Virus record (IMG/VR): IMGVR_UViG_3300005985_000002
Span: 4,344-68,343 of that record
Source of the DNA: a virus
Taxonomy: Duplodnaviria > Caudoviricetes
Strand: one strand, 5' to 3'
Length of the DNA stretch: 64,000 bases
The translations under genes and the position numbers were made by a program. This document shows positions 341 to 52,211 of this stretch, piece after piece; positions within the stretch are counted from its first letter, which is position 1; the number at the start of each line of letters is the position of its first letter. The notes below the pieces were generated by a model. That model did not search any database, was not told the origin of the DNA, and saw only the letters and a program-made list of their open reading frames with translations.

Positions 341-497
341 CCGAAGGGAAGAAGCGGAGGGGTGTCAACCGGACATCACGGCGATGAAGAAGCGGATCGA
401 TTTTTCCGGTTTCTAATCCGCGCCAACGAAATGGCAGGCGAGCTTTCAACCCGTGCCCCTCCGCTTGTTATACGCTGAATCGCAAAGTGAGTACAAC

Positions 498-46168: not shown

Positions 46169-47989
46169 TCACGCCGCCGGCTTCGCCGGCGCCGTCATCT
46201 GCGCGCGCCACTGCCGGTTCCAGATCGTGACCATCTGCCGCTTACCGTTGCGGTGGACGATGATGTGTGAGTGCGACCAGCCGCTCGGGCTGTCGGATGC
46301 GTACTCCATGTCGAGCCGGCCGGTGACGCCGGCCTGCCAGGCGCCGTTGAAAATGCCGGCCTCATGGGAATGGCCGATGCAGACGCGCCGGCCGAGCTTC
46401 GCGAGGTTGCGGATATTGCCGCGCGCGCCGCGCGGACCTTTATCGCCATGCAGCCCCATCTCCAGGCCGCCGCCGCGCGCCTTGAGGATGATGCACTTCC
46501 TGCGGCGCGACAGCCATTCAACGCCGGGCGCGGGATTGATCTTCTCGACGGCCCTGCGCAGCGGATCGAAATCGTTGTCGTTGGCCGCGATGGCGCGATA
46601 CCAGTCGGCATTGAGATCGTGGAAGATGATAGCGTTCTGCGGATCGCGCAGCACCGTTCCTTCCTTGAGCCATTTGCCGAGATGCTCGTTATGGTTCGAG
46701 GGCACGACGCGCGAGCGGCACCAGGGACGCTGGGACTTCTTGAGGAACTCGCCGACGTCGAACACTTCCTTCGAGACGCTGTCGCGCCCGTGCTTCCAGA
46801 GCTTGAAGGCCACGTGCGGGTCTTTGAGATTGTGGTGCGAGCGCGATTCGAAGTCGATGAGATCGTGAAAGAATTGCTGGCGTGGCCGCAGCACGTCGAT
46901 CATGCCGTCCTTGCCCCAGCAGAGATCGAACATCCACTGCTCAAGCTGGGCGACGTGAATGTCGCCCCATTGGACCGCCTCGACGCCGTCGTGCTTTTCG
47001 GCCGCGCCGTCCGGCCGATAGATCGTCTCCAGGTCGTAGATGACGCCCTTGTTGTCGGCGATGAGCTGGCGCACCCACCAATTGCCCTCGCTGTCGACCT
47101 CCACTAGCAGGCCGCCGAAGACGTGATCGAACTCGGCCTTCTGTCCGGCCTTGCGCTGGATGTAGTTCATGAGCCCGACCGTGCCCGTGGTGTACTGGAA
47201 CTTGGTCGGGTCTTCCTGGATGGTCGCGATGGACTTCATCTGGAGCTTGGCGTGCGGGAAGATGCCCGAGGCGCGGCCGTTATAATTGTCCATGCCGGAG
47301 AGCGGCTCGACCGCAGTGGGCCAGTTCTGGGTGTGGCCGTTCCACATCAGGCCCGGCGCAAGCTGCACCAGCTCGTCGCAGATATAGGGCTCGACGTCCG
47401 GCGCCCACCATTGCGCCCGCTCCTGCTTTTCCGTGCCGCGCTTCTCGGAGCCTTGCGCCTTCTGCACATAGGAGAACGAGCCGACCATCAGCTCGGCGTC
47501 CAGGCGCTCGGCGATGTTGAGCAGAGTGGGCCAGCAGGGATGGAGATAGGTATTGTTCTGAAGCGAGGTCAGCACATAGCGCGCGATCTGGCCCGGCTTG
47601 GGGACTGGGCGCACCACGGGCGGCCGCTCGGTCAGCGCGCCGTTGGCGAGCTTGGGCTGCAGCTCTGCCGCGGCAAGACGGGTTTGCAGCGTCTGACGCG
47701 GGATGCCAAGACGGCGCGCGGCGGCAGCCTCGCTTCCGCGCTCGATCTCCATCGCCTTGACTGCATCGCGGATGTCGGCCGGATCGACGCGACCTGGCCG
47801 CTTGAGGTTGTGGGGATAGGACGGCACTGCATCCTTGCCCCAGCGCTGCCTGGCGATCTTAATGCGCTCAGCAACGCCGTTGAACGTCAACCCAAGCTCA
47901 TCGCCGGCTTTCGTCCGGTCGCCATTGTGGCGCTTGATCGCGGCGATGGTCGCCTTAAGCGCTTTGTCGGTGAGGCGGGGAGCGGCCAT
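46169..47989 (-). CDS. HTH + calcineurin-like metallophosphoesterase
   Basis: GDIH, HDLID, SNHNEH, LHGD, IGHSH; N-terminal AAARRLGIPRQTLQTRL. Confidence 0.75.
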   Translation of the reverse strand: MAAPRLTDKALKATIAAIKRHNGDRTKAGDELGLTFNGVAERIKIARQRWGKDAVPSYPHNLKRPGRVDPADIRDAVKAMEIERGSEAAAARRLGIPRQTLQTRLAAAELQPKLANGALTERPPVVRPVPKPGQIARYVLTSLQNNTYLHPCWPTLLNIAERLDAELMVGSFSYVQKAQGSEKRGTEKQERAQWWAPDVEPYICDELVQLAPGLMWNGHTQNWPTAVEPLSGMDNYNGRASGIFPHAKLQMKSIATIQEDPTKFQYTTGTVGLMNYIQRKAGQKAEFDHVFGGLLVEVDSEGNWWVRQLIADNKGVIYDLETIYRPDGAAEKHDGVEAVQWGDIHVAQLEQWMFDLCWGKDGMIDVLRPRQQFFHDLIDFESRSHHNLKDPHVAFKLWKHGRDSVSKEVFDVGEFLKKSQRPWCRSRVVPSNHNEHLGKWLKEGTVLRDPQNAIIFHDLNADWYRAIAANDNDFDPLRRAVEKINPAPGVEWLSRRRKCIILKARGGGLEMGLHGDKGPRGARGNIRNLAKLGRRVCIGHSHEAGIFNGAWQAGVTGRLDMEYASDSPSGWSHSHIIVHRNGKRQMVTIWNRQWRAQMTAPAKPAA

Positions 47990-47990
47990 C

Positions 47991-48434
47991 TCACGCGGCC
48001 TTCTTGACGACGCCAATGAAATAGTAGGTCGGCTGGCCCTCGGCCTTGTCCTTTTCGAAGATCACGCCTTCGACCGGCGCAAGCATGGTGGGGAGAAGCT
48101 CGCCGTCGTCCGGCAGGTCGTGAACGCCCTTGCCTGTGATGTGCATCCACATGATCGCCAGGGCGTTCCAGGCGACGTGCGCAAGATGGTGACAGCCGGT
48201 CTCCCGGTCATACCATTCGCCGCGCAGCACGTGGTTCAAATGGCGCAGCAGGCAGCCGACGCATTCGCGCATCGACAGGCCCTTCTTCCAGTTGTCGTCG
48301 GCGTATTTGCGCGCGCCTTGGCTGAAGACCTGAGCCAGAGCAATGGTCCAGGAATGAGGCACAAGTTCCAGTTTCAGCTTGCCCTTGTTGAAGCGGTCGC
48401 CCAGCTTTGCGGCCGAGGGTTTCTTGTCAGACAT
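47991..48434 (-). CDS. DUF5664-type dATP/dGTP diphosphohydrolase
   Basis: GARKYADDNWKKG...LLRHL...DRETGCHHLAHVAWN. Confidence 0.85.
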   Translation of the reverse strand: MSDKKPSAAKLGDRFNKGKLKLELVPHSWTIALAQVFSQGARKYADDNWKKGLSMRECVGCLLRHLNHVLRGEWYDRETGCHHLAHVAWNALAIMWMHITGKGVHDLPDDGELLPTMLAPVEGVIFEKDKAEGQPTYYFIGVVKKAA

Positions 48435-48468
48435 GAGACGCGCTCCTTGTTGCGTTTAAGCTGACAAT

Positions 48469-48978
48469 CTAGACAAGCGTTAGGTCGACGCCGGCATCGG
48501 CGAGCACTTTGCGCGCGGCGGGAAAGTCGTAGCTGTCAGGCTGGTAGTCATCATCCGGGGGCCGGGCGATCACGCGCGCGATACCTGCATTGCCGATTGC
48601 GTGAGCGCAGGAGAGGCAGGGAAACCAGTTGACCGCCAGAGCGGCTCCGCGCGTGGGCAGACCCCTGCGGGCGCATTCTTCGATGGCGATACGCTCGGCA
48701 TGCCCGAGGGCGGTGAATTTCGGCTTGCGCTCCACGCCACGCGGGGTTGAGGCGTATTCGTGAACGCAGACGTCCGGGATATCATTGCTCGCCCAGATCA
48801 CCGCCATGTTCATGTCGTGGGGCAGGATGGCGCATAGCGTGGTCGCATAGCCGCGGCGGCGCGCGTCGATGAACGCCGCAAGATCATCGAGCCAGTGAAC
48901 GACGTTCACCGGCTGATACGGGACGATGCTGCGGTCGCAGGAAAAGGCGCAGCGGTTGCGGATGCGCTCGTCGATCAC
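48469..48978 (-). CDS. dCMP deaminase-like zinc deaminase
   Basis: HAE...PCLSC...IGNAGIARV. Confidence 0.85.
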   Translation of the reverse strand: MIDERIRNRCAFSCDRSIVPYQPVNVVHWLDDLAAFIDARRRGYATTLCAILPHDMNMAVIWASNDIPDVCVHEYASTPRGVERKPKFTALGHAERIAIEECARRGLPTRGAALAVNWFPCLSCAHAIGNAGIARVIARPPDDDYQPDSYDFPAARKVLADAGVDLTLV

Positions 48979-49259
48979 AGCAAGTCCCCCACATTGCGGC
49001 GCCGCGCCGGCTTGCCTATTGCGAGCGCATCGGCCGGCAGCATTTTGGGCCAGCCGTCGAACTCGTCGCTGTCGGTCAGCGCCTCGTCGCGGATGCCGGC
49101 GACGCCATAGAGAAAGACCGATCCTTTGAGGATTGGCAGCCCTTCGACATAGTCGGCGCGCTTTTCCTTTGCCGGCCGGCGCCAGCTCGACTGGCGAAAA
49201 CCGCTCTCGCTCCCGTACTGGCCGTAAAAGCCGTTATGCTCATAGACGATCCGCATCAC
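48975..49259 (-). CDS. hypothetical protein
   Basis: Coupled overlap with the deaminase. Confidence 0.55.
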   Translation of the reverse strand: MMRIVYEHNGFYGQYGSESGFRQSSWRRPAKEKRADYVEGLPILKGSVFLYGVAGIRDEALTDSDEFDGWPKMLPADALAIGKPARRRNVGDLL

Positions 49260-49269
49260 TAGGCCTCTA

Positions 49270-49593
49270 TCAATAAGGGCGGGCGTTCAAACGATGGATG
49301 TTCGCCTCGCGCAGCGCTGCTTCCTTCGCCTGGCGAATCTTCTCAACGTAACCGCGCGGGGCGCCGTTGCGAAGATTGGAGCGCACGAAAAAGCGCTTGG
49401 AGCCGGGAAAAGTCTCGACTGCGCGAGCGTTGATTTTATAGCCCTTGGCGGCCCAGAACGCGTTAATGGCCTCGCACCGCTTGTCGACGACATGCTTGCG
49501 GTCGCCGGCCTGGTCCGAGCGCTCGCGCGCCTCGGCGAGCATCTTGGCGCGCTGAAGCTTGGCGGTGTTGGCGGACTTGCGGATATAGGTCAC
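49270..49593 (-). CDS. hypothetical protein
   Basis: GTGA overlap with MazG gene. Confidence 0.6.
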   Translation of the reverse strand: MTYIRKSANTAKLQRAKMLAEARERSDQAGDRKHVVDKRCEAINAFWAAKGYKINARAVETFPGSKRFFVRSNLRNGAPRGYVEKIRQAKEAALREANIHRLNARPY

Positions 49594-49991
49594 CGGTTAT
49601 CTCCGTCGCCGCCCATCACGCCCCGCTCGTGCCGGTCGCAAGTCTTGTCGATGTTGATCTGGGCGACTTCGGCCAGGGTGCTGTCGAGCATCTCGGCGAG
49701 GCGGGCGATGTACCAAAGCCCATCGCCCAGCTCTTTCAGAAGCGCCGCGCGGCGCTCGGGCGCAAAGCGCAGTACGCTCAACCGTTCGATCAAGTTGAGC
49801 GTGTCGGGATCATCGCGCAGCGACTTGCCGAGATGCTCGTTGAACTCGCCGGCTTCGCCTGCGTACTTGGTCGCAAGATGGAAGAAGCCCATGACGGCCG
49901 AACCTTTAAGGCGGCTGTTCTTCCAGCTTACGTTGGATAGGTCAGCGTAGGCCTCGAAGGTAAGCGGGGCGGGACTGATGCCGGCGATCAT
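49590..49991 (-). CDS. mazG: MazG-like nucleotide pyrophosphohydrolase
   Basis: AGEAGEF...KELGDGLWY...INIDKTCDRHERGVMGGDGDNR. Confidence 0.9.
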   Translation of the reverse strand: MIAGISPAPLTFEAYADLSNVSWKNSRLKGSAVMGFFHLATKYAGEAGEFNEHLGKSLRDDPDTLNLIERLSVLRFAPERRAALLKELGDGLWYIARLAEMLDSTLAEVAQINIDKTCDRHERGVMGGDGDNR

Positions 49992-50850: not shown

Positions 50851-51354
50851 CTAATCCTCGAACATGCGCGCCAACTTCTTCGCGGTCTCCGCTACGGACG
50901 GCGCCCGCACGCGCTCGACATCCTGCTCAGCCCGTTTCACAGTACTCGTCCGTGCGGCAGCCTGGATCGTTCCGAGGACAGACAGCTCGCCAAAAAGACG
51001 TCGCCTGACAGCGCGCGGCACATCGTTGGCATGCTTCACGCCGCCCTCGATGGACTTAATCGCACGACGCGCCTTCGATCTTATAGAGGAACGAGCACGT
51101 TCAGCTACGACAGGCAGATTTTCGGTCGGCAAGCGTTTATACCCGACGCGGTAGACGCTCTCGAAAACAAGGCCGTACTCTTCGGTCGCCTCGCTCCGCG
51201 CGGCTTGGAGCACGTGACGCTTGGCGTTTATGTCGCCCCCAAGCACTTCGCTGATCGTCTTAAGAGTCAGAACTCCGCCAATTGGGGTGTTCTTCATTGC
51301 TTCGATCAGCTCGGCGCGCGCCTTGATGTTCTCGGCGCTGGCTGTGTAGTTCAT
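50851..51354 (-). CDS. winged-HTH/helical protein, candidate accessory of the RAMP locus
   Basis: LTLKTISEVLG...LQAAR...VFESVYRVGYKRL; RBS AAAGGAACTACA identical to that of the RAMP gene. Confidence 0.65.
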   Translation of the reverse strand: MNYTASAENIKARAELIEAMKNTPIGGVLTLKTISEVLGGDINAKRHVLQAARSEATEEYGLVFESVYRVGYKRLPTENLPVVAERARSSIRSKARRAIKSIEGGVKHANDVPRAVRRRLFGELSVLGTIQAAARTSTVKRAEQDVERVRAPSVAETAKKLARMFED

Positions 51355-51365
51355 TGTAGTTCCTT

Positions 51366-51475
51366 TCGTGTCGCTTCAGATCACTTCGGCCCGACTCGCA
51401 TCCGGTAGGTTCGTTTCCCGTCGCTTCGCCTCAAATAGGGGCAAGTCGCCTAGTCTCGTTTCAATTCGGTTCGGG
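51366..51475 (-). ncRNA. pentamer array B: 22 x (NN-YGA), candidate guide RNA
   Basis: Minus strand cccga accga attga aacga gacta ggcga cttgc cccta tttga ggcga agcga cggga aacga accta ccgga tgcga gtcgg gccga agtga tctga agcga cacga; intergenic. Confidence 0.75.
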
Positions 51476-51480
51476 GAATT

Positions 51481-52065
51481 TCATGCGGCCAATTTGCGGT
51501 TGTCGGTCCACTTCATCCGCTCGATATGGAAACGGCCATTCATGCCGCCGTTCTGCGGACGGAAACGGCCGAGGCCGTTGAACAAACCTGCCAGCTCCAC
51601 CATTTCGCGGAACACATCCTCGGTGATGATCGGATCGAGGATCAAAATCTCGAACGTCGTCGACCATTCCGAAATGATGGGGAAGCGTCTCGGAACGCGT
51701 TTGCCCGACCCGCGAACGCCGTCAGCGTTCGCGCTGATGTCGATAGGGCCGAAGTCTTCGGGCTTCACACCAAGATCGAGATCGGACATGACCATGATTC
51801 CGGCTTGGAATTTGGCTGTCCAGGTCGCTTTCCCTTGGCCCGGTATCTGGCGCTTTGAATACTTCGCGGCCGAGACCAACGCCTGATGGAACGCAAACGC
51901 AGGGATCAGGACATTGCCGTTGGCGCCGACTGTCAGCTTTGAACGCCAGGTTCTTTTGTCGTAGTCGTCCTTCCCCTCGCCTTCGAGATGGGGCTCGTCA
52001 TGCTGACGACTCGCCGAATACGGAGAGTCACCTTTGATCGTGAGGATCACATTGGTCAGTTTCAT
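51481..52065 (-). CDS. solitary Cas7-like RAMP protein (Vipr-like)
   Basis: ILTIKGDSPY first strand; IPAFAFHQALVSAA helix; C-terminal Gly-rich loop AGLFNGLGRFRPQNGGMNGRF; 194 aa. Confidence 0.8.
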   Translation of the reverse strand: MKLTNVILTIKGDSPYSASRQHDEPHLEGEGKDDYDKRTWRSKLTVGANGNVLIPAFAFHQALVSAAKYSKRQIPGQGKATWTAKFQAGIMVMSDLDLGVKPEDFGPIDISANADGVRGSGKRVPRRFPIISEWSTTFEILILDPIITEDVFREMVELAGLFNGLGRFRPQNGGMNGRFHIERMKWTDNRKLAA

Positions 52066-52086
52066 ATGTAGTTCCTTTCTGCGGTT

Positions 52087-52211
52087 TAAGATCGGTTCAG
52101 ATCGGTTTGGGTCAGATCGACTCGCTTCGCCTCGCGGCGGGTCGAATCGGTTCGTTTAGACTCGCTTCGCCTCACATCGGATCGGTTCGCCGCGGATCGA
52201 TTCGGCTCGAA
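52087..52211 (-). ncRNA. pentamer array A: 25 x (NN-YGA), candidate guide RNA
   Basis: Minus strand ttcga gccga atcga tccgc ggcga accga tccga tgtga ggcga agcga gtcta aacga accga ttcga cccgc cgcga ggcga agcga gtcga tctga cccaa accga tctga accga tctta; intergenic. Confidence 0.8.

What the first reader, a model, noticed from the sequence alone, without database searches (positions are those of the whole stretch)
50851..52211. Solitary Cas7-like RAMP flanked by two NN-YGA pentamer arrays: candidate non-CRISPR RNA-guided phage system
SEEN: the 194-aa ORF 51481-52065 has RAMP/Cas7-like features (ILTIKGDSPY, IPAFAFHQALVSAA, C-terminal G-loop GLGRFRPQNGGMNGRF). Both flanking intergenic spaces are filled by strict 5-nt periodic sequence on the coding strand. 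Array A (52087-52211, 25 units): position 3 = C/T 25/25, position 4 = G 22/25, position 5 = A 23/25, positions 1-2 variable. Array B (51366-51475, 22 units): C/T 20/22, G 19/22, A 20/22. No other cas gene or CRISPR array is in the window. KNOWN: Cas7-family RAMPs polymerise along guide RNA with a fixed nucleotide step. RECOLLECTION, to be verified: a recently reported phage RAMP system (VIPR) uses RNAs of alternating GGY/NN to read gapped dsDNA targets. INFERENCE: this is such a system, or a sister lineage, with a different scaffold triplet (YGA). Each protomer would grip YGA and present NN for pairing, probably to repress competing phages, mobile elements or host genes.
Basis: partly seen in the sequence, partly recalled or inferred. 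Interest (0 to 1): 0.96.

Follow-up and report, generated by a model that had tools for sequence, protein, structure and literature searches.

The report
Phage VIPR system with YGA repeats
A complete 68-kb phage carries a VIPR RNA-guided silencing system (a small Cas7-like protein, two arrays of 5-base repeats and a DNA-binding partner) of a kind first described in 2026, but its repeats use the fixed triplet YGA instead of the canonical GGY.

Summary
On the minus strand, 25 units (52211-52087) and 22 units (51475-51366) of NN-Y-G-A flank a 194-aa ORF. These are the only such arrays in the whole phage genome, and they lie far beyond chance.

The ORF folds as a single-RRM Cas7/Csm3-like RAMP. 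Its family profile hits only one solved structure, the SUSP1 Vipr protein. The next gene is a winged-helix protein related to SUSP1-clade Vap1.

About 970 protein clusters form this Vipr clade. In 148 related loci the gene is flanked, on its own strand, by pentamer arrays (median 11 units). The fixed triplet differs by lineage: CGC 86, CTC 13, CAC 12, GGC 5, GAC 5, GAT 1, GTC 1. Only the window has a purine (A) at triplet position 3.

G-loop residue 167 tracks the middle base: R with G in 67 of 67, Q with A in 11 of 12 CAC loci. Residue 163 is I/V in 92 of 95 proteins and N only here.

Non-canonical triplets were already reported in October 2026. I found no target, and no RNA data exist.

Verdict: a real VIPR system and a new variant of a known kind. 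This scan noted the same stretch twice before.

The parts
52087..52211 (-). vrRNA array A: 25 pentamer units of NN-YGA. It starts one base after the stop codon of the upstream ORF and ends 7 nt before the RBS 13-mer of vipr.
   Evidence: Y 25/25, G 22/25, A 23/25, and the two exceptions at position 5 are C. It lies on the same strand as vipr, as in the SUSP2 control.
51481..52065 (-). vipr: a 194-aa single-RRM RAMP (Cas7-like) protein with the C-terminal G-loop G164-L-G-R167-F168-R169-P.
   Evidence: AF2 pLDDT 84.7. Foldseek against the PDB gives Cas7/Csm3 at E 1.5e-7. The family profile's only PDB hit is 36pp 'SUSP1 Vipr protein', E 2.3e-4. hhalign to SUSP2 Vipr gives probability 85%, E 6e-6. 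phrog_4652 matches at E 1e-12. There are 969 homologue clusters.
51366..51475 (-). vrRNA array B: 22 pentamer units of NN-YGA between vipr and vap. Its last units run in register into the RBS (..AG-CGA CA-CGA AA-GGA..).
   Evidence: Y 20/22, G 19/22, A 20/22. The register relative to the RBS matches the relatives' ..AA-CGC AA-CGC AA-GGA...
50851..51354 (-). vap: a 167-aa accessory protein with an N-terminal winged helix-turn-helix followed by long helices.
   Evidence: AF2 pLDDT 93.8, elements H7-22, E28-30, H31-38, H42-60, E64-67, E71-74, then long helices. It is syntenic, downstream and on the same strand, in 60 of 63 related loci with a match. hhalign to the SUSP2 gene after vipr gives probability 74%, E 3e-5. 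Foldseek finds only weak wHTH regulators, E about 0.03.
52067..52079 (-). Array-to-gene junction 13-mer GAAAGGAACTACA (RBS) in front of vipr.
   Evidence: two exact copies in the window, 0 expected.
51355..51367 (-). The same junction 13-mer in front of vap.
52122..52173 (-). Two copies of the 12-mer GAGGCGAAGCGA inside array A, 40 nt (8 units) apart. A third copy lies in array B at 51421-51432. They may mark boundaries between individual vrRNAs.
   Evidence: 3 copies against 0.03 expected. The boundary reading is inference only.

Best explanation
This is a VIPR (Viral Interference Programmable Repeat) locus of a temperate phage with a probable Rhizobiales host. Its layout is array A - vipr - array B - vap, all on one strand. 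By homology with the SUSP1 system, the arrays are transcribed with the genes. One Vipr protomer binds each 5-nt unit and sequesters the fixed triplet, here Y-G-A. The two variable bases of each unit are exposed and read double-stranded DNA with one base skipped between dinucleotides. The filament silences transcription of the target, most likely a competing phage, satellite or prophage, and the winged-helix Vap assists. The locus belongs to a large, mostly alphaproteobacterial Vipr clade in which the fixed triplet has diversified. The window's clade neighbours use C-G-C, and the window has changed position 3 from C to A. Shown here: the arrays, the RAMP fold, homology to Vipr and Vap1, array flanking across the family, the triplet census, and covariation of G-loop residue 167 with the middle base. 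Inferred: transcription and processing, filament assembly, gapped DNA reading, silencing, and a role for N163 in accepting A.
For: Arrays confirmed and unique in the genome. RAMP fold; BFVD best hits are uncharacterised phage proteins and a phage 'RAMP superfamily protein'. The family profile's only PDB hit is SUSP1 Vipr, aligning G-loop GlGRFRP to GVGDWRP, and hhalign gives 85%. In the SUSP2 control, NNGGT units lie on the vipr strand both upstream and downstream of the gene, the same geometry as here. Of 90 related loci with enough flank, 69 have an array upstream, 76 downstream and 58 both; 344 arrays have a median of 11 units, IQR 9-15, matching the published 9-16. Five loci of the same protein family use canonical GGC. 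Column 167, equivalent to SUSP1 D177, a published triplet contact, has the highest mutual information with the middle base: R in 61/61 CGC, 5/5 GGC and the window; Q in 11/12 CAC; F/V in GAC and GAT. CAC with Q turns up in both deep halves of the tree. Vap is syntenic and Vap1-like. The record is a virus genome, CheckV 100% complete. There is no self-target, as published for VIPR.
Against: There is no expression evidence: the only public run holding the DNA is the source rhizosphere metagenome. No target beyond chance was found in the phage itself, 147 related loci, IMG/VR seeds, or 401 genomes of the taxonomic order of a Rhizobium genome. The window has no structured 3' tail like SUSP1's or like that of some relatives. 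No promoter or terminator delimits the arrays. At 25 and 22 units the arrays are longer than usual, and array B is fairly degenerate (15/22 exact). A purine at triplet position 3 conflicts with the purine-excluding pocket described for SUSP1. No close relative with the same triplet is available to show the variant is maintained by selection; the best relative is 67-71% identical.
Confidence: 0.82

Rival explanations
1. A decaying or inactivated VIPR locus. The arrays have drifted from the ancestral CGC and the protein carries odd substitutions, so nothing functional is left.
For: Array B has only 15/22 exact units. The window protein sits alone on a 0.37 branch with unique changes (I163N, H57F, Q18A). 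No second example of this triplet exists in the clade.
Against: The ORF is intact and keeps every invariant column of the family alignments: 56 in A1 and 21 in the broader A2. The change is directional, not random: 43 of 47 units have A at position 3, and 3 of the 4 exceptions carry the ancestral C. Both arrays changed in the same way. The RBS junctions are identical. The phage genome is complete.
Confidence: 0.08
2. The pentamer arrays act in cis. They could be 5'-UTR elements on which Vipr assembles to control translation of vipr and vap, or DNA iterons bound by the winged-helix Vap, rather than trans-acting guides.
For: Both arrays abut the RBS, and array B runs into it in register. No independent promoter, terminator or tail was found. 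No target was found.
Against: Relatives carry up to 16 arrays per locus that are not followed by genes; they are separated by a structured element with compensatory changes. Two of every five positions are hypervariable, which is pointless for an operator. The homologous SUSP1 system is shown experimentally to act in trans. Autoregulation could still coexist with guiding.
Confidence: 0.06
3. A remnant or minimal CRISPR-Cas module (an orphan Cas7 of type III, IV or VII) unrelated to the repeats.
For: The best solved-structure matches are Cas7 of type VII and Csm3.
Against: No CRISPR repeat family and no other cas gene is found. Sequence identity to Cas7 is 13-19%, whereas the only sequence-level PDB hit is Vipr. 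The pentamer arrays co-occur with the gene in more than 100 loci.
Confidence: 0.01

Closest known systems
VIPR type II of Escherichia phage SUSP1/SUSP2 and the Pseudomonas fulva prophage (bioRxiv 10.64898/2026.04.26.720920 and .720927)
   Same: A single-RRM RAMP of about 195 aa with a G-loop. A winged-helix Vap gene follows vipr. Pentamer arrays of fixed triplet plus NN sit on the gene strand on both sides of vipr. It is phage-borne, with no cas genes and no self-target.
   Different: The triplet is Y-G-A, not G-G-Y. G-loop residues differ (R167-F168 against D177-W178; N163 against C173). An array lies between vipr and vap. There is no pseudoknot tail. The arrays run straight into the RBS. Protein similarity is detectable only by profile (E 2e-4).
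Non-canonical VIPR arrays found by entropy periodicity (bioRxiv 10.64898/2026.10.21.760802: GAC/NN, CAC/NN, WGT/NN, TGH/NN next to Vipr-like folds)
   Same: The same idea: divergent Vipr proteins with a fixed triplet other than GGY. CAC and GAC classes also occur in this protein clade. TGH allows A at position 3.
   Different: CGC, CTC, CGA and YGA are not named in that text, and its Fig. S10A could not be read. No link between triplet and protein residues is reported there, as far as the text shows.
The CGC-type relatives of the same Vipr clade (for example IMG/VR loci L001-L019; MAGs of Roseomonas, Geminicoccaceae and Hyphomicrobiales)
   Same: 62-71% protein identity, the same gene order, the same RBS junction (AAGGAACTAC), and the same register of units relative to the RBS.
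   Different: Position 3 of the triplet is C there and A here. The constant terminal AA-CGC AA-CGC units are absent here. Some relatives add a 75-nt structured element after each array.
IMG/VR locus L209 (IMGVR_UViG_3300032138_000381)
   Same: Seven arrays with A at triplet position 3 (GGA/CGA, 78 of 84 units) lie upstream of a Vipr-like gene on the same strand. The residue equivalent to SUSP1 C173 is also small and polar (S there, N here).
   Different: The protein is SUSP1-like (G-loop GVGDWR) and unrelated at the clade level. Position 1 is G or C rather than C or T.
CRISPR class 1 Cas7/Csm3 backbone subunits
   Same: RRM core, thumb and G-loop. In the known systems, one protomer binds per fixed RNA step.
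   Different: There is a 5-nt step instead of 6, no CRISPR array, no partner cas genes, and a DNA-reading mode by gapped dinucleotides (by homology).

Membership tests
VIPR | Vipr protein: a small single-RRM RAMP with G-loop and thumb, homologous to described Vipr | tested here: met
   AF2 model with Foldseek hits to Cas7/Csm3 at E 1.5e-7. Profile hit to PDB 36pp SUSP1 Vipr at E 2.3e-4. hhalign to SUSP2 Vipr at probability 85%.
VIPR | Tandem 5-nt units (fixed triplet plus variable NN) beside vipr on its strand | tested here: met
   25 and 22 units. Orientation is as in the SUSP2 control. The feature holds across the family.
VIPR | Fixed triplet is GGY (canonical definition) | tested here: not met
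   The triplet is Y-G-A: C 36, T 9 and G 2 at position 1; G 41/47 at position 2; A 43/47 at position 3. The original paper allows 'a related consensus', and a later one reports other triplets.
VIPR | Accessory vap gene with a predicted DNA-interaction domain | tested here: met
   wHTH model at pLDDT 93.8. Synteny in 60/63 loci. hhalign to SUSP2 vap1 at probability 74%.
VIPR | Encoded by a virus or provirus, without cas genes or a CRISPR array | tested here: met
   IMG/VR record of 68,343 b, CheckV 100%. Phage genes surround it. No CRISPR family found in Rfam.
VIPR | Conserved 3' tail after the repeat tract | tested here: inconclusive
   No structured tail in the window. The two arrays share only ..GATCTGAAsCGA.. 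and the RBS 13-mer. Some relatives have a structured element with 9 compensatory pairs.
VIPR | Arrays give discrete small RNAs that co-purify with Vipr | not testable with these tools
   No RNA run holds the sequence.
VIPR | NN dinucleotides match natural targets under the 1-nt-skip rule; no self-target | tested here: inconclusive
   No self-target. No match above shuffled-guide nulls in related loci. IMG/VR seeds do not extend. There was 1 chance-level hit in 401 genomes.
CRISPR-Cas class 1 (Cas7) | CRISPR array and partner cas genes (Cas5, large subunit, Cas6) | tested here: not met
   None in the ORF list, the Pfam/PHROG scans or Rfam.

The most novel reading that the evidence does not exclude
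The fixed triplet may be a private identity tag set by a few G-loop residues. Residue 167 would read the middle base (R with G, Q with A), and residue 163 would gate position 3 (I/V with C, N or S with A). Phages of this clade would switch triplets repeatedly so that their Vipr ignores the vrRNAs and decoy vrRNAs of competitors. On this reading the window shows a pyrimidine-to-purine switch at position 3 that the SUSP1 structure would not predict. That would hand engineers a set of mutually orthogonal VIPR channels.
Probability: 0.35. Interest if true: 0.75.

Novelty: new variant of a known kind. Interest (0 to 1): 0.55.

Why it matters
VIPR is a months-old class of RNA-guided DNA binders with a gapped code. 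This locus and its roughly 970-cluster clade show that the 'scaffold' half of the code is not fixed. At least eight triplets are used by related proteins, and one G-loop residue changes in step with the middle base. The window adds the clade's only purine at position 3, together with a rare substitution at the pocket residue that excludes purines in SUSP1. If the protein-triplet pairs are truly specific, they explain how co-infecting phages keep their guides apart. They also give a direct route to orthogonal programmable repressors. For annotation, it shows that GGY-based callers miss most systems of this clade.

Tried and rejected
Contigs of the closest homologue (P0002, 71%) could therefore not be read. 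Loci came from the search for related loci instead.
- Pfam gave nothing for Vipr or Vap.
- Rfam found no ribozyme or known RNA in nine related loci, and nothing near the locus in the window.
- Promoter and terminator scans gave nothing meaningful.
- RNA evidence: no RNA holder is listed. The only run is the source DNA metagenome.
- Targets under skips of 0-3 in the phage's own genome were at chance, apart from the trivial skip-3 self match.
- Targets in 147 related loci were at chance.
- Three exact 8-unit seeds in IMG/VR gave 20, 8 and 8 hits, which did not extend beyond the seed.
- One 12-unit pattern with up to 3 mismatches in 401 genomes of the taxonomic order of a Rhizobium genome gave 1 hit, as expected by chance.
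- An IMG/VR scan for six consecutive CGANN units returned mostly pentanucleotide microsatellites. Only L190 (GAC type), L209 (SGA type) and L213 held a Vipr-like gene.
- The tree of 95 proteins is too poorly resolved for a formal independent-pairs test: only one pair lies on well-supported branches.
- Reading the arrays on the other strand (TCRNN) was rejected. The canonical and GGC-type members of the same family place GGY on the gene strand.
- An alternative register (GA-N-N-Y) was rejected. The units align with the relatives' CGC units relative to the RBS.
- The supplementary tables of the VIPR paper are not held, so the VIPR type (I-VII) of this clade could not be assigned.

Full report
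OBSERVATION

Read on the minus strand, the sequence between the stop codon of the upstream ORF and the ATG at 52065 is 25 consecutive pentamers of the form NN-Y-G-A (52211-52087). The sequence between the stop of the 194-aa ORF and the next ATG is 22 more (51475-51366).

Array A has Y 25/25, G 22/25 and A 23/25. Array B has 20/22, 19/22 and 20/22. Positions 1-2 use all four bases.

The best count of in-phase YGA in 22 units is 18. The maximum in 200 Markov surrogates of the window is 9, and the plus strand gives 6. The full 68,343-base record holds no other array, with this triplet or with GGY, CGC, CAC, CTC or GAC.

Of the four units that lack A at position 3, three carry C.

Both arrays end at the same 13-mer, GAAAGGAACTACA, directly before the ATGs of the two genes. 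A 12-mer, GAGGCGAAGCGA, occurs three times and only inside the arrays; two copies are 8 units apart.

THE PROTEIN

Pfam finds nothing. PHROGs gives phrog_4652, of unknown function, at E 1e-12.

With an alignment of 33 homologues, AlphaFold2 gives a confident model (pLDDT 84.7, pTM 0.80). It has a beta-alpha-beta core, a poorly ordered hairpin at 111-125 and a C-terminal glycine-rich loop.

Foldseek against the PDB returns only CRISPR backbone subunits: type VII Cas7 (8z4j_J, E 1.5e-7, probability 1.00, TM 0.55) and Csm3 of several type III-A complexes, at 13-19% identity. Against viral models the best hits are uncharacterised phage proteins and a 'Cas system-associated RAMP superfamily protein' of a siphovirus.

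A profile of the family searched against all PDB chain sequences hits a single entry, 36pp 'SUSP1 Vipr protein' (E 2.3e-4). Residues 103-183 align to 110-186 with the G-loops in register, G-L-G-R-F-R-P against G-V-G-D-W-R-P. hhalign against the SUSP2 orthologue gives 85% probability and E 6e-6. The RAMP claim and the link to Vipr are therefore both supported.

LITERATURE

VIPR is real and recent.

- bioRxiv 10.64898/2026.04.26.720920 describes phage-borne Vipr RAMPs. They have vrRNAs of 9-16 YNNGG units plus a 3' tail, dsDNA recognition by the NN dinucleotides with one skipped base, transcriptional silencing of competing elements, vap accessory genes and seven types. Some types use 'a related consensus'.
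- The companion structure paper shows one protomer per unit. G1 is read by H17 and D177, G2 by R138 and W178. Y3 sits in a pocket (E71, M72, C173, T175, R179) that excludes purines.
- A third paper shows satellites that hijack Vipr with solo vrRNAs.
- bioRxiv 10.64898/2026.10.21.760802 reports 21 clusters (6,318 sequences) of 5-nt arrays with other triplets next to Vipr-like folds, for example GAC, CAC, WGT and TGH. CGC, CTC, CGA and YGA do not appear in its text. Its figure listing all patterns could not be read.

CONTROL

In phage SUSP2 the NNGGT units lie on the coding strand of vipr, both upstream and downstream. The gene after vipr is vap1. The window has the same geometry, so the arrays should be read on the gene strand, with the conserved triplets aligned position for position.

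THE FAMILY

The protein has 969 homologue clusters at E<=1e-3, mostly metagenomic and 62-71% identical. I collected 80 loci from IMG/VR, 25 from metagenomes and 42 from GTDB genomes. The named hosts are mainly Alphaproteobacteria: Roseomonas, Geminicoccaceae, Hyphomicrobiales, Ancylobacter, Bradyrhizobium, Rhizobium, Paracoccus and Devosia. No locus is closer than 67% to the window.

Pentamer arrays on the gene strand flank the gene almost everywhere. Of 90 loci with at least 700 nt on both sides, 69 have one upstream, 76 downstream and 58 both. The 344 arrays have a median of 11 units, IQR 9-15.

The fixed triplet is lineage-specific: CGC in 86 loci, CTC 13, CAC 12, GGC 5, GAC 5, GAT 1, GTC 1 and CGA 1, the window. 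In 23 loci no triplet could be called. Position 3 is C or T in every called locus except the window. The presence of canonical GGC members inside the same protein family ties the clade to VIPR directly.

PROTEIN-TRIPLET COVARIATION (95 unique proteins)

The column with the highest mutual information with the middle base (0.63 bit) is residue 167, the equivalent of SUSP1 D177.

- R in 61/61 CGC, 5/5 GGC and the window.
- Q in 11/12 CAC.
- F or V in GAC and GAT.
- R in 9/10 CTC.

CAC with Q occurs in both deep halves of the tree. L073, L102 and L103 sit among 45%-identical CGC/R proteins, and L020, L040/41/47 and L050/56/90 sit among the 60-70% group. The tree is weakly supported, however, and only one switch is forced by well-supported branches. 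I therefore treat this as strong association with suggestive independence.

Residue 163, the equivalent of SUSP1 C173 in the purine-excluding pocket, is I or V in 92 of 95 proteins and N only in the window. A separate, SUSP1-like Vipr in IMG/VR locus L209 is preceded by seven arrays with GGA/CGA triplets (A at position 3 in 78 of 84 units) and has S at that position. That makes two lineages, so it is a lead and not a test.

THE PARTNER GENE

ORF 50851-51354 models at pLDDT 93.8 as a winged helix-turn-helix followed by long helices. Foldseek finds only weak matches, all wHTH regulators. A homologue lies downstream on the same strand in 60 of the 63 related loci with a match. hhalign to the SUSP2 gene after vipr gives 74% probability and E 3e-5 over 104 columns. 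It is best called a Vap1-like accessory protein.

CONTEXT

The record is a virus genome that CheckV rates complete. The locus sits in a leftward block with a DNA transfer protein, a dATP/dGTP pyrophosphohydrolase, a dCMP deaminase and MazG. An Atu_At1-type Rhizobiales sRNA at 353-461 (94 bits) and the rhizosphere origin point to a Rhizobiales host.

WHAT COULD NOT BE SHOWN

- No RNA data exist.
- No promoter, terminator or structured tail delimits the arrays.
[quoted passage not shown] Related loci, IMG/VR seeds and 401 genomes gave only chance-level hits.
Natural targets may match as few as six units. This blank therefore says little.

MECHANISM AND RIVALS

The most likely reading (0.82) is a working VIPR system. 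Its Vipr binds Y-G-A triplets and presents NN for gapped reading of a competitor's DNA.

- Decay (0.08) is disfavoured. The ORF is intact, every family-invariant residue is retained, and the change in both arrays is directional.
- A purely cis role for the arrays (0.06) is disfavoured. Relatives carry many arrays that precede no gene, each followed by a structured element with compensatory changes. Vipr assembly over the RBS-proximal units could still add autoregulation.

NOVELTY

The kind is known, and so is the existence of non-canonical triplets. Three things are new here:

- this particular triplet, with a purine at position 3 inside a CGC clade;
- the size and triplet diversity of the clade;
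- the residue-167 and residue-163 correlations.

I rate it a new variant of a known kind, with interest 0.55.

Noticed in passing
window 353-461 (+): Full-length match to the Rfam family Atu_At1, a Rhizobiales sRNA (94 bits, gathering threshold 60), inside a phage genome. It is a clue to the host, and a host-type sRNA carried by a phage.
   Followed up: no
L007:2047-4226, L002:2779-2862, L003, L004, L006, L029, L051, L058, L053 (alignment A4): In a subclade of relatives, every array is followed by a conserved element of about 75 nt. It has two nested helices plus a terminal hairpin: 21 predicted pairs, 9 with compensatory changes. It has no Rfam match. It is probably the vrRNA 3' tail or a processing site of this clade, and it is absent from the window.
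   Followed up: partly
L209:10810-11380 (-) and gene L209:9965-10747 (-): Seven arrays with triplets GGA/CGA (A at position 3 in 78 of 84 units) lie upstream of a SUSP1-like Vipr (G-loop GVGDWR, with S at the C173-equivalent position). This is a second, unrelated VIPR lineage with a purine at scaffold position 3.
   Followed up: partly
window 52162-52173, 52122-52133, 51421-51432 (-): The 12-mer GAGGCGAAGCGA (units GG-CGA AG-CGA) occurs three times, only inside the arrays; two copies are exactly 8 units apart. It may mark the starts of individual vrRNAs, dividing the arrays into 8+8+9 and 9+13 units, or it may be a shared target segment.
   Followed up: no
L077, L123, L127, L133, L135 (GGC); L130, L141, L143, L144, L148 (GAC); L132 (GAT); L134 (GTC): Members of the same protein family with G at triplet position 1 have N instead of Q at residue 61 in 10 of 11 unique proteins, and mostly non-R residues (often C) at residue 127. 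Most of them fall in one weakly supported tree group, so this is confounded by descent.
   Followed up: partly
window 46169-49991 (-): Directly downstream of the VIPR genes lie a DNA transfer protein (phrog_1745), a dATP/dGTP pyrophosphohydrolase, a dCMP deaminase and a MazG-like pyrophosphatase. This is a nucleotide-pool cluster in the same leftward block.
   Followed up: partly
L085-L149 record titles: Vipr genes of this clade also sit on contigs binned to Massilia, Kiritimatiellia, Flavobacteriaceae, Saccharibacteria, Planctomycetota, Nitrospirae and cyanobacteria. This reflects either a wide host range or binning of phage contigs.
   Followed up: no
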